Below are positions 10,844 to 13,066 of a DNA stretch of 64,000 nt, piece after piece (within the stretch, counting starts at the first letter, position 1; every line of letters begins with the position of its first letter). The position numbers and the translations under genes were made by a program. This DNA is from Escherichia coli (GTDB taxonomy: Bacteria; Pseudomonadota; Gammaproteobacteria; Enterobacterales; Enterobacteriaceae): the NCBI RefSeq assembly GCF_003334785.1, contig NZ_QOWV01000006.1; one strand, given 5' to 3'. Below the pieces are notes generated by a model. The model worked only from the letters and a program-made list of their open reading frames with translations. It was not told the DNA's origin and did not search any database.

Positions 10844-13066
10844 TTAGTCCTCGTTTACAACCTTCTGCTGGGCGGCTTTTTTGGCCTGAGCGCGGGCAAT
10901 AGCCGCGGCAACTGCCGCTTTGCGCGGATCAACCTGTTCTTCTGGTACCGCATTAGCCTGTTGCTGTTCCAGCTTGCGTGCTTTGGCGCGTGCAATAGCC
11001 GCTTCGACGGCAGCTTTGCGCGGATCAACCTGTTCTTCTGGCTCCGCATTAGCCGGTTGCTGTTCCCGTTTGCGCGCTTTGGCTCGGGCAATAGCGGCTT
11101 CGACGGCGGCTTTGCGCGGATCGACCTGTTGTTCTGGCTCGGCATTAGCCTGTTGCTGTTCCAGCTTGCGTGCTTTGGCACGGGCAATAGCGGCTTCGAC
11201 GGCGGCTTTGCGCGGATCGACCTGTTCTTCTGGTTCCGCATTAGCCTGTTGCTGTTCCAGCTTGCGCGCTTTGGCACGGGCAATAGCGGCTTCGACGGCG
11301 GCTTTGCGCGGATCGACCTGTTGTTCTGGTTCCGCATTAGCCTGTTGCTGTTCCAGCTTGCGCGCTTTGGCGCGGGCGATAGCTGCTTCAACGGCAGTTT
11401 TACGTGGATCAGCAACGGTTGCTGCGTCGTTAGTTTGCTGCAGTTCTGCCTGTTTCGCTCTGGCTTGCGCTTTACGGGCTTCCCGTGCTGCAATAATTGC
11501 ACTGTTATCCGGGCGTTCGCCCGCTTTAATCACAATAGGCTGTGTAGCCTGGGCCTGTTTCTCTTTCACCCGCGCCAGAGCGGCAGCAATCGCATCTTTA
11601 TCTTTGGCTGCAGGTTGAACGGCTGCGCTCTTATGTCGTTCAAGGCGAGCCGCTTTTTCGCGCTCCAGACGAGCCTGGCGCGCTTCGAAACGCGCTTTGG
11701 CTTCTGCGGCGCGCTTTTCTTCCTGACGAATAGCCGCAATTTCAGCTTTTTCCTGACGGAAATATTGCACCAGGGGAATATTGCTCGGGCAAACCCACGC
11801 GCAAGCCCCACATTCAATGCAATCAGCAATGTTATGCGTGGTAGCTTTATCGTGTTGCTGACCTTTGCTGAACCAGTACAACTGTTGCGGCAAAAGATCC
11901 GCAGGGCAGGCGTCAGCACAGGCGCTACACCGGATGCAGCTTTGTTCTTCCTGTGGTTCGCCAAGTTCATTGGCAGAGGGAGCCAACAGACAGTTGGTAA
12001 TCTTTACGACCGGGACATCCAGCCATGGCAAGGTAAAGCCCATTAGCGGGCCACCCATAATCACCATTTGATCGGCAGAGGGGCAGAATCCGGCATCATT
12101 CAATAAATGACGCACTGGCGTCCCCAGCCGTGCCCAGACGTTGCCCGGGCGAGCGATTGCTTCGCCAGTCAGGGTTACAACACGCTCGGTAATCGGCTCG
12201 CCATCAATAACGGCACGTTTCACTGCATAAGCAGTGCCGACGTTTTGCATTAATACGCCGATATCGGATGAACGCCCGCCATGTGGAACCTGCTTCCCGG
12301 TCAGAATGTAGGTTAATTGTTTAGCACCGCCAGAAGGATATTTGGTTGGAATCACCCGCAGAGAAATATCGTTAGAGTCCGCCAGCACCGCGCGCAGCAT
12401 GGAAATCGCCTGCGGTTTGTTATCTTCAATGCCGATAAGAATTTCGCGTGGCTGCAGAATATGCGCAAGAATGCGAATACCCTCTACGACCTGAGCCGCG
12501 CAATCCTGCATCAAACGGTCATCGGCGGTAATGTACGGCTCGCACTCAGCCGCGTTGATAATCAACGTTTCAATCTTATCTCCGCCACCCTGCAATTTAA
12601 CGCCTGTCGGGAATCCTGCACCGCCCAGCCCGGCAACACCAAACTGATGTATGCGCTCGATTAACTCTTCGCGACTGCGAGTGCGATAATCGGCCCAGCC
12701 GTCGCGCGGGATCCAGCAGTCTTCACCATCGGCATCAATAATCACGCTTAATTCAGCTAAAGCTGAAGGATGAGCCGTAGAGTGGGGCGCAATAGCCGTA
12801 ACGGTACCCGAGGTGGGCGCGTGAACAGGCAGCATTTTGCCGCGACCACGGGTAAGCGGCTGGCCGCGCAATACTTTATCGCCGACGCTAACGCACAACT
12901 CACCTTCAGCGCCAATATGCTGTTTCAGTGGAATAACAAAACGCTGCGCCAGGGGTACCTGGCGCAGGGGTGTACCGTTGGACTGGGTTTTCATCTCCGG
13001 TGGATGGATGCCGCCGTTGAAATCCCAGATTTTATTTTTTCTGAATGCAGAGAATAACTTAAGCAT
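10844..13066 (-). CDS. rsxC: Rnf-type complex subunit C (Fe-S, NADH-binding) with repetitive C-terminal tail
   Basis: 740-aa ORF with two CxxCxxCxxxCP ferredoxin motifs and C-terminal 32-aa repeats. Confidence 0.92.
10866..11410 (-). repeat. In-frame 96-bp tandem repeat array inside rsxC (about 5.5 copies)
   Basis: The motif TGCGCGGATC recurs at 10921, 11017, 11113, 11209, 11305 (degenerate at 11401); encodes repeated [32 protein letters not shown]. Confidence 0.9.

What the first reader, a model, noticed from the sequence alone, without database searches (positions are those of the whole stretch)
10866..11410. Coding 96-bp tandem repeat array in the rsxC tail
About 5.5 near-identical 96-bp units encode a 32-aa Ala/Lys/Gln/Glu-rich repeat in the C-terminal tail of RsxC. 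Copy number here gives a 740-aa allele, and such in-frame repeats are prone to slippage, so this is a likely strain-variable locus. The repeats also create long spurious antisense ORFs (10739-12046 and 10920-11618).
Basis: seen in the sequence. Interest (0 to 1): 0.35.

Follow-up and report, generated by a model that had tools for sequence, protein, structure and literature searches.

The report
Variable coding repeat in rsxC tail
The 3' end of the E. coli rsxC gene holds a real in-frame 96-bp tandem repeat whose copy number differs between strains; this is correct but already published, and the only open question is what the conserved helix encoded by each unit does.

Summary
Tandem Repeats Finder gives a 96-bp period, 5.4 copies, 91% matches and no indels at 10890-11411. 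It is the only tandem repeat scoring 50 or more in the 64-kb window. The array lies in rsxC (10844-13066, minus strand, 740 aa; E. coli K-12). It has five full 32-aa units plus a degenerate terminal unit.

In a systematic sample of 60 of 5,425 complete E. coli genomes, alleles carry 0, 2, 4, 5, 6 or 7 full units (580-806 aa), always in frame. K-12 and two near-identical strains differ by exactly one unit, with a hybrid unit at the junction. The two antisense ORFs exist and behave as by-products.

The polymorphism is already published for E. coli (BMC Genomics 2026, PMC13185298) and for Erwinia (PMC10587187), so it is not novel.

What I add:
- Each unit is predicted to be one roughly 22-residue basic, Ala-rich helix plus a flexible acidic linker.
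- The helix core (DP[KR][15 protein letters not shown]) recurs in RnfC/RsxC tails across Gammaproteobacteria, with lineage-specific repeat periods of 27-102 aa.
- This suggests a conserved functional module whose copy number varies. Its function is unknown.

The parts
10844..13066 (-). rsxC coding sequence, 740 aa. The stop codon TAA (10844-10846) directly abuts the rsxD start codon.
   Evidence: ORF list; 100% identity to the MG1655 rsxC annotation; NF003454 RsxC equivalog 868 bits, TIGR01945 rnfC 597 bits.
11732..13066 (-). Catalytic core of RsxC (residues 1-445): RnfC_N barrel, NuoF-like FMN/NADH domain, SLBB domain and 2x[4Fe-4S] ferredoxin domain.
   Evidence: Pfam hits at residues 14-115, 139-283, 296-344 and 373-430. 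The two tail-less solved RnfC structures (7zc6_C, 9eri_C) align to residues 14-448; 8ahx_C aligns on to 498. AF2 pLDDT is above 95.
11411..11731 (-). Non-repeated part of the tail (residues 446-552). It contains a long charged helix, a proximal single copy of the motif ([14 protein letters not shown], residues 490-505, window 11552-11599), and the conserved segment [23 protein letters not shown] (residues 518-541, window 11444-11515).
   Evidence: AF2 helices 432-483, 489-507 and 522-547. Both segments recur in distant RnfC representatives. No Pfam domain matches here.
10931..11410 (-). Five full 96-bp units (32 aa each, DPRK[TA][24 protein letters not shown][EQ]QV) at 11315-11410, 11219-11314, 11123-11218, 11027-11122 and 10931-11026.
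   Evidence: TRF; unit dissection; unit HMM 67-72 bits each. AF2 gives each unit as one helix plus a linker with pLDDT below 50.
10844..10930 (-). Degenerate terminal unit ([28 protein letters not shown] plus stop). It is present in every allele examined and is closest to the pan-gammaproteobacterial motif consensus.
   Evidence: (23.5 bits).
10739..12046 (+). Antisense ORF (435 aa), a by-product. It is the codon-aligned antisense frame, which can be closed only by sense codons TTA, CTA or TCA. The last such codon in rsxC is CTA at codon 341, which is the ORF's stop at 12044-12046.
10920..11618 (+). Second antisense ORF (232 aa), a by-product. Its length scales with unit number between alleles.
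10855..11502 (-). Frameshifted rsxC sequences read through the array in this frame.
   Evidence: frameshift products P0091 and P0020.

Best explanation
This is an in-frame coding minisatellite (a variable-number tandem repeat) in the non-catalytic C-terminal tail of RsxC. RsxC is the cytoplasmic NAD(P)H-side subunit of the Rsx/Rnf membrane redox complex.

Shown:
- Each 96-bp unit encodes 32 residues.
- Whole units are gained or lost in register, leaving a hybrid unit at the junction.
- Every allele stays in frame and ends with the same terminal unit abutting rsxD.
- Units differ by about 10% at DNA level, mostly at synonymous sites.
- Units have positional counterparts in other alleles, so the array is old and changes slowly.

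Predicted: each unit forms one roughly 22-residue basic, alanine-rich alpha-helix ([23 protein letters not shown]) followed by a flexible acidic linker of about 7-13 residues (ANAEPEEQV). The tail is therefore a string of helices on flexible linkers.

Inferred mechanism of change: misaligned homologous recombination or replication slippage between neighbouring units.

Inferred function, at low confidence: the helix is a conserved docking module for an unidentified, probably acidic, partner. Unit number would then set how many copies are displayed and how far they reach. Variation between 4 and 7 full units is probably close to neutral.
For: Periodicity and register.

Allele series of 0, 2, 4, 5, 6 and 7 full units, all in frame.

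Single-unit event: K-12 has units 01-02-03-04-05-06, while EC24 and ETEC1749 have 07-03-04-05-06. Unit 07 is the head of unit 1 joined to the tail of unit 2, with the crossover inside a 48-nt identical stretch. ETEC1749 has 0 SNPs against K-12 in the 1656 nt upstream.

Constraint on the protein: 62 synonymous against 22 non-synonymous codon differences among the five units, and 13 of 18 variable columns are third codon positions.

Age and stability: the nearest neighbour of 34 of 39 units lies in another allele. Arrays are identical in the two O157:H7 genomes, in the two fetched 806-aa genomes (a third carries the same protein accession), and in EC24/ETEC1749. The repeat type tracks MLST in PMC13185298.

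Structure: AF2 predicts helices at 554-576, 586-608, 618-639, 651-668, 682-704 and 714-739, separated by stretches with pLDDT below 50.

Non-catalytic status: no Pfam domain lies beyond residue 430. Two of the three solved RnfC structures end at about residue 445 and the third aligns to 498. The tail was listed as a 'module of unknown function' in PMC555942.

Motif conservation: 133 distinct instances in 37 of 149 representatives that are no more than 50% identical to each other. Positions 7-18 are 83-99% conserved (counting V/I and I/V/L as equivalent at positions 7 and 11), while the flanks are below 35%. The motif is seen in RsxC/RnfC fragments named as Salmonella, Klebsiella, Yersinia, Dickeya, Lonsdalea, Haemophilus, Mannheimia and Vibrio. 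It is also seen in unnamed 'hypothetical' fragments from Proteus, Aeromonas and Pseudoalteromonas. Shuffled tails give 0.0004 cores per tail against 1.64 observed.
Against: Nothing argues against the minisatellite description.

The functional part has several weaknesses:
- An allele with no full unit exists in strain 1105, so the array is dispensable for viability.
- Deleting rsxC itself gives mild phenotypes (PMC4759930).
- No partner is known.
- The helix has a low hydrophobic moment (0.16), so it is not a classical amphipathic docking or membrane helix.
- AF2 confidence for the helices reflects local structure only. No contacts could be inspected.
- Motif instances were collected with a consensus pattern, which inflates apparent conservation. 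The de novo periodicity analysis and shuffle control only partly offset this.
- Recombination and slippage cannot be told apart from sequence alone.
Confidence: 0.85

Rival explanations
1. The tail repeats are functionally inert low-complexity filler. The array expands and contracts neutrally, and the apparent motif conservation reflects composition and shared descent rather than selection.
For: A natural allele with no full unit exists. Tail length among homologues ranges from about 60 to 822 residues, and many tails lack the motif. Three solved, functional Rnf complexes have at most a short tail. Delta-rsxC has mild phenotypes.
Against: Synonymous changes outnumber non-synonymous ones among units (62 to 22). 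The core positions are 83-99% conserved across clusters no more than 50% identical to each other, while the adjoining spacer is unconserved. The core is essentially absent from composition-matched shuffles. At least the terminal copy is retained in every E. coli allele, including the shortest.
Confidence: 0.25
2. The array is an adaptive contingency locus. Copy number is under diversifying selection and tunes Rsx activity, and through it the SoxRS response, virulence or resistance.
For: PMC13185298 reports correlations of repeat number with virulence-gene counts (rho 0.32) and with resistance-gene counts (rho -0.28). rsxC is listed among genes mutated in parallel evolved lines in PMC9778841 (the type of mutation was not checked).
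Against: Unit changes never shift the frame, so there is no on/off switching. Arrays are identical within clones and track MLST. Units are old, with orthologues across alleles. The reported correlations are confounded by phylogeny: 29 of the 33 R7a strains are ST11, the O157 lineage.
Confidence: 0.08
3. One or both antisense ORFs (10739-12046, 10920-11618) are real overlapping genes.
For: They are long (435 and 232 aa) and stay open in all alleles examined.
Against: 58 of 74 SNPs fall on rsxC third codon positions. In the overlapped non-repeat part, 16 of 22 SNPs are synonymous for rsxC, but 18 of 22 change the codon-aligned antisense product. The ORF end is set by the last TTA/CTA/TCA codon of rsxC, and ORF length scales with unit number. 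There is no NCBIfam match. The second ORF's frame was less decisive (13 synonymous, 9 non-synonymous).
Confidence: 0.02
4. The length differences are assembly artefacts caused by collapsed or expanded repeats.
For: The array (480-770 bp) exceeds short-read length. Many database RsxC entries are 'partial' fragments at contig ends. The 0-unit and 2-unit alleles are singletons in my sample.
Against: All records are complete-genome assemblies. The same allele recurs in independent genomes of a lineage. Junction units are clean hybrids. The Erwinia polymorphism was confirmed by PCR and sequencing.
Confidence: 0.03

Closest known systems
RSXC repeat polymorphism of E. coli (Jothi et al., BMC Genomics 2026, PMC13185298)
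   Same: It is the same locus, the same 32-aa unit starting with DPRK, and the same copy-number classes. That paper counts the terminal unit, so its R4-R7 equal 3-6 full units. K-12 would be R6; the O157 protein WP_000915707.1 is its R7a and WP_000915721.1 is its R5a.
   Different: That paper is a typing scheme on 83 genomes. It gives no DNA-level mechanism, structure or cross-genus comparison. My sample extends the range to 0, 2 and 7 full units and adds 33-aa units caused by a CAG insertion.
RsxC 40-aa repeat of Erwinia amylovora and E. pyrifoliae (Ham & Park, Sci Rep 2023, PMC10587187; Plant Dis 2024)
   Same: It is the orthologous gene, at the same tail position (starting at residue 553), with the same helix core [18 protein letters not shown] and 0-5 copies among strains.
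   Different: The unit is 40 aa with an unrelated Ala/Pro-rich spacer. The authors suggest a solenoid or toroid fold, whereas AF2 here gives isolated helices joined by flexible linkers.
Structurally characterised RnfC (A. vinelandii 8ahx_C, C. tetanomorphum 7zc6_C, 9eri_C)
   Same: The core is homologous: residues 14-448 in the two tail-less structures and up to 498 in 8ahx_C (E-values 1e-121 to 1e-83). It is a cytoplasmic peripheral subunit with FMN and two [4Fe-4S] clusters.
   Different: These proteins are 435-496 aa. They have no repeated tail, so no structure informs on the array.
Other Ala/Lys/Glu-rich helical repeat tails (TolA domain II, histone-H1-like AKP tails); recalled from general knowledge, not tested
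   Same: They share the composition and the predicted helical, extended, charged character.
   Different: No sequence relationship was detected. The RsxC motif has fixed hydrophobic positions (V7, I11) and fixed Ala positions, unlike the degenerate AKP repeats.

Membership tests
RsxC/RnfC (Rnf-type electron transport complex subunit C) | Sequence match to the curated family model above its cut-off | tested here: met
   NF003454 scores 868 bits (cut-off 345) and TIGR01945 scores 597 bits (cut-off 246).
RsxC/RnfC (Rnf-type electron transport complex subunit C) | Domain set: RnfC_N barrel, NuoF-like FMN domain, SLBB domain and two CxxCxxCxxxCP clusters | tested here: met
   Pfam hits. The cysteines C377, C380, C383, C387, C416, C419, C422 and C426 are invariant in 100 homologues.
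RsxC/RnfC (Rnf-type electron transport complex subunit C) | Operon context rsxA-B-C-D-G-E | tested here: met
   Annotated context in MG1655; ORFs in the window.
Coding minisatellite / variable-number tandem repeat | Head-to-tail copies of a unit of 10-100 bp whose length is a multiple of three | tested here: met
   The period is 96 (32 codons) with 0% indels.
Coding minisatellite / variable-number tandem repeat | Copy number differs between strains by whole units | tested here: met
   0, 2, 4, 5, 6 and 7 full units were found in complete genomes. A hybrid junction unit marks one event.
Phase-variable contingency locus | Short unit (1-9 bp) whose changes shift the reading frame or promoter spacing, giving on/off switching at high rate | tested here: not met
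   The unit is 96 bp and all alleles are in frame. Arrays are identical within clones and units are old. The rate itself was not measured.
Membrane-targeting amphipathic helix (MinD/FtsA type) | High helical hydrophobic moment with bulky hydrophobic residues on one face | tested here: not met
   The hydrophobic moment is 0.16, against 0.27 for the MinD membrane-targeting sequence. The only hydrophobic residues are V7 and I11, and the basic residues are spread around the helix.
RNA polymerase omega (RpoZ/Rpb6) fold, for tail residues 505-550 | Profile-level sequence similarity | tested here: not met
   phmmer gives E 0.037, but hhalign probability is 0.8% over 10 columns.

The most novel reading that the evidence does not exclude
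The 18-21-residue basic, alanine-rich helix (DP[KR][18 protein letters not shown]) may be a conserved functional docking module of gammaproteobacterial RnfC/RsxC that has not been described as such. Under this reading, each lineage has amplified it in tandem with its own spacer (periods of 27-102 residues). Copy number then sets the valency with which the Rnf/Rsx complex recruits an unidentified partner. The E. coli length polymorphism would be natural variation in that valency.
Probability: 0.3. Interest if true: 0.5.

Novelty: already known. Interest (0 to 1): 0.22.

Why it matters
As flagged, the finding matters little. The locus is a correct but already published typing marker.

It has practical consequences:
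- The array breaks or collapses short-read assemblies. Many database RsxC entries are partial fragments.
- An intact short allele has been flagged as a pseudogene.
- Because a second sense frame is open across the array, frameshifted sequences yield long false proteins. One of them is the representative of its 50%-identity cluster.

The more interesting residue is biological. A module listed as 'unknown function' since 2005 carries a helix conserved across at least three orders of Gammaproteobacteria on a widely studied redox complex. Natural alleles with 0 to 7 extra copies offer a ready-made test series.

Tried and rejected
(1) I asked whether the non-repeated tail (residues 446-552) is made of older, decayed copies of the 32-aa unit. 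A unit HMM gave only negative-score, composition-driven matches, so this is not supported. Cross-genus comparison later showed one conserved proximal motif copy at residues 490-505.

(2) A resemblance of tail residues 505-550 to RNA polymerase omega (phmmer E 0.037) was rejected by profile comparison (probability 0.8%). The papers that mention rsxC together with RNAP concern an N-terminal terminator and the N-terminal barrel domain.

(3) The membrane amphipathic-helix idea is disfavoured by the low hydrophobic moment.

(4) Rapid concerted homogenisation within E. coli is rejected. Within-allele and between-allele unit distances are equal (9.4 of 96 nt), and nearest neighbours lie mostly in other alleles.

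(5) Inferring allele length from BLAST spans proved unreliable where the alignment stopped before the gene end. H46 spans 2177 bp but the gene is 2319 bp. I replaced spans with annotated lengths.

(6) Rfam and tRNA scans of the window found nothing. NCBIfam has no match for the three by-product ORFs.

(7) The word-indexed protein search with the repeat alone returned mostly fragments. It was useful for organism names but not for frequencies.

(8) rsxC-I525F from an evolution experiment lies in the tail upstream of the array, but the authors judged it null or neutral, so it is uninformative.

Full report
**Observation.**
Tandem Repeats Finder reports one array in the region: 10890-11411, period 96, 5.4 copies, 91% matches, no indels, score 813. 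It is the only tandem repeat scoring 50 or more in the 64-kb window. The ORF list gives a 740-aa ORF on the minus strand at 10844-13066. The gene is 100% identical to rsxC of E. coli K-12 MG1655 and lies in the rsxABCDGE-nth operon. It matches the curated RsxC model at 868 bits against a cut-off of 345.

**Unit structure.**
Cut in codon register at the recurring DPRK, the array has five full 96-bp units (11315-11410 down to 10931-11026). These are 82-92 of 96 nt identical to one another. A degenerate terminal unit follows at 10844-10930 (51-55 of 87 nt identical), and a unit HMM still recognises it at 23.5 bits. Only the lower boundary runs about 24 nt into diverged sequence.

**Anatomy of the protein.**
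Pfam places all recognisable domains within residues 14-430. The two tail-less solved RnfC structures align to residues 14-448, and 8ahx_C aligns on to 498. The remaining roughly 290 residues were catalogued in 2005 as a 'module of unknown function' (PMC555942).
- AlphaFold2, run with a 100-sequence alignment, gives a confident core with pLDDT above 95.
- In the tail it gives a string of helices: 554-576, 586-608, 618-639, 651-668, 682-704 and 714-739.
- These helices are separated by stretches of 7 to 13 residues with pLDDT below 50.
- Each unit is therefore predicted as one basic, alanine-rich helix ([23 protein letters not shown]) plus a flexible acidic linker (ANAEPEEQV).
- The helix has a low hydrophobic moment (0.16) and basic residues on all faces. 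This argues against a classical membrane-binding amphipathic helix.

**Variation in E. coli.**
rsxC is present in 5,425 of 5,426 complete genomes. I took the tool's evenly spaced sample of 60 records. BLAST spans turned out to mislead where the alignment stopped early, so I read annotated gene lengths for every pattern that was not self-evident.

| Full units | Genomes | Protein length (aa) |
|---|---|---|
| 5 | 35 | 740 or 742 |
| 4 | 12 | 708 or 709 |
| 6 | 6 | 772 (includes O157:H7) |
| 7 | 5 | 806 |
| 2 | 1 | 644 |
| 0 | 1 | 580 |

Five of the 60 assignments (H49-51, H57-58) are inferred from alignment patterns identical to verified rows. All alleles are in frame and end with the same terminal unit. 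The 1-2-residue differences come from a CAG (Gln) insertion that makes 33-aa units. The 0-unit allele, in strain 1105, is annotated as a truncated pseudogene. Its sequence nevertheless reads in frame to TAA directly before the rsxD ATG.

**How copy number changes.**
- K-12 carries DNA units 01-02-03-04-05-06. Strains EC24 and ETEC1749 carry 07-03-04-05-06.
- Unit 07 equals unit 1 up to position 87 and unit 2 at position 88. One unit was therefore removed (or added) by an exchange inside the 48-nt stretch where units 1 and 2 are identical.
- ETEC1749 has no SNP against K-12 in the 1656 nt upstream, so the event is recent.
- The 0-unit allele is a hybrid of the first and terminal units, joined at a 7-nt shared stretch.
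- Whether such events arise by RecA-dependent unequal exchange or by replication slippage cannot be decided from sequence.
- The locus is not hypermutable. Arrays are identical in independent genomes of the same lineage, and the published repeat type tracks MLST.
- 34 of 39 units have their nearest relative in another allele rather than their own. Mean within-allele and between-allele distances are equal at 9.4 of 96 nt.
- The array therefore predates the diversification of E. coli. Its units have diverged mainly at synonymous sites: 62 synonymous against 22 non-synonymous codon differences, and 13 of 18 variable columns are at third positions.

**By-product ORFs.**
- Four of the six frames are stop-free across the array.
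- The 435-aa plus-strand ORF is the codon-aligned antisense frame. Only sense codons TTA, CTA or TCA can close it. The last such codon in rsxC is CTA at codon 341, which is exactly the ORF's stop at 12044-12046.
- Antisense open stretches lengthen and shorten with unit number between alleles.
- Of 74 SNPs in the collinear part of the gene, 58 fall on rsxC third positions.
- In the overlapped non-repeat stretch, 16 of 22 SNPs are silent for rsxC, but 18 of 22 change the aligned antisense product. The second antisense frame was less decisive (13 silent, 9 not).
- None of the three ORFs matches a curated family.
It has a visible consequence: frameshifted rsxC sequences read through the array in that frame. 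One such product (P0091, 736 aa) is the representative of its 50%-identity cluster (also P0020).

**What is known.**
The E. coli polymorphism is the subject of a 2026 paper. It describes 32-aa units starting with DPRK and types R4-R7, counting the terminal unit (PMC13185298). The same laboratory described a 40-aa RsxC repeat with 0-5 copies in Erwinia amylovora, confirmed by PCR (PMC10587187), and a further one in E. pyrifoliae (reference). Neither paper proposes a function or a DNA mechanism. The finding as flagged is therefore already known. My sample only widens the observed range to 0, 2 and 7 full units.

**Beyond E. coli.**
- A search with the repeat alone returned RsxC/RnfC fragments named as Salmonella, Klebsiella, Enterobacter, Yersinia, Dickeya, Lonsdalea, Haemophilus, Mannheimia and Vibrio.
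- It also returned unnamed 'hypothetical' fragments from Proteus, Aeromonas and Pseudoalteromonas.
- The 15 fragments whose sequences I read cover all of these genera except Enterobacter. All carry DP[KR][10 protein letters not shown][AV]KA[KR]K, separated by spacers unrelated in sequence and length.
- An exhaustive search of cluster representatives with full-length RsxC gave 9,282 hits.
- Among the best 149, 37 carry 1-11 copies of the core, with tandem periods of 27, 33-36, 38-39, 46-48, 50 and 52-55 residues and more.
- Across 133 distinct instances, positions 7-18 are 83-99% conserved (counting V/I and I/V/L as equivalent at positions 7 and 11), while flanking columns stay below 35%.
- Those instances were picked with a consensus pattern, so I also detected periodicity without using the motif. 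Of 120 representatives with tails of at least 120 residues, 38 have a tandem repeat, and 25 of those contain at least two strict cores.
- Shuffled tails give 0.0004 cores per tail against 1.64 observed.
- More distant homologues have other repeated tails with related basic helices.
- E. coli's terminal unit is closer to the general consensus than its inner units, which carry Glu at position 8.
- A single proximal copy (residues 490-505) and a [14 protein letters not shown] segment (residues 518-541) are also shared with distant genera.

**Interpretation.**
The secure part is that this is an old, slowly changing, in-frame minisatellite in a non-catalytic tail. It encodes helix-plus-linker beads. 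The inferred part is that the helix is under selection, and is therefore a functional module displayed in variable copy number. The fixed small and hydrophobic positions suggest docking to a defined partner. The surrounding charges suggest an acidic partner. This remains a hypothesis. The 0-unit allele and the mild phenotypes of rsxC deletion show the array is dispensable for growth. The reported links to virulence and resistance gene counts are confounded by lineage.

**Verdict.**
Novelty is nil for the finding as stated, with a modest open question about the conserved helix.

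Noticed in passing
window 10855-11502 (-); proteins P0091, P0020, P0010: A second sense-strand frame is stop-free across the array. Frameshifted rsxC sequences therefore give long false proteins (…[15 protein letters not shown]…). One of them (P0091, 736 aa) is the representative of its 50%-identity cluster in the protein library.
   Followed up: partly
L005:1201-2943 (E. coli strain 1105, NZ_CP023388.1): rsxC is annotated as a pseudogene 'missing C-terminus'. The sequence is in fact an intact 580-aa ORF ending in TAA directly before the rsxD ATG. All full repeat units are absent, through a join between the first and terminal units.
   Followed up: yes
L004, L006, L010 (units with LEQQQQANA): On top of the 96-bp unit variation there is a 3-bp CAG (Gln) length variation inside some units. 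It gives 33-aa units and alleles of 709, 742 and 806 aa.
   Followed up: partly
window 11552-11599 and 11444-11515 (-), RsxC residues 490-505 and 518-541: Two non-repeated tail segments are conserved in distant RnfC homologues: a proximal motif copy ([13 protein letters not shown]) and [23 protein letters not shown]. They may form a fixed scaffold upstream of the variable array.
   Followed up: partly
window about 12940-13003 (-), RsxC residues 22-24 (PPE) and just downstream: Published work (PMC5021804, PMC13192885) places a weak NusA-dependent intrinsic terminator inside rsxC, 16 nt after a PPE motif, linked to EF-P-dependent transcription-translation coupling. It is unrelated to the repeat, and I did not check it in the sequence.
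   Followed up: no
proteins P0048 and P0073: Two singleton database proteins join an RsxC-type tail to unrelated domains (an Mfd TRCF fragment and a histidine-kinase ATPase fragment). They are probably chimeric assemblies or miscalled ORFs at the repeat.
   Followed up: no
L015:2528-2881 (E. coli ETEC1749): rsxD, directly downstream of a 4-unit rsxC allele, is annotated as frameshifted in this strain.
   Followed up: no
window 1-64000: There are no Rfam family matches at gathering threshold and no tRNA or tmRNA genes anywhere in the window. The rsxC array is its only tandem repeat with a TRF score of 50 or more.
   Followed up: yes
PMC9778841: rsxC and tolA, both with Ala/Lys-rich coding repeats, are listed among genes mutated in parallel evolved E. 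coli lines. These could be repeat-unit changes or mapping artefacts at repeats. I did not inspect the supplementary tables.
   Followed up: no
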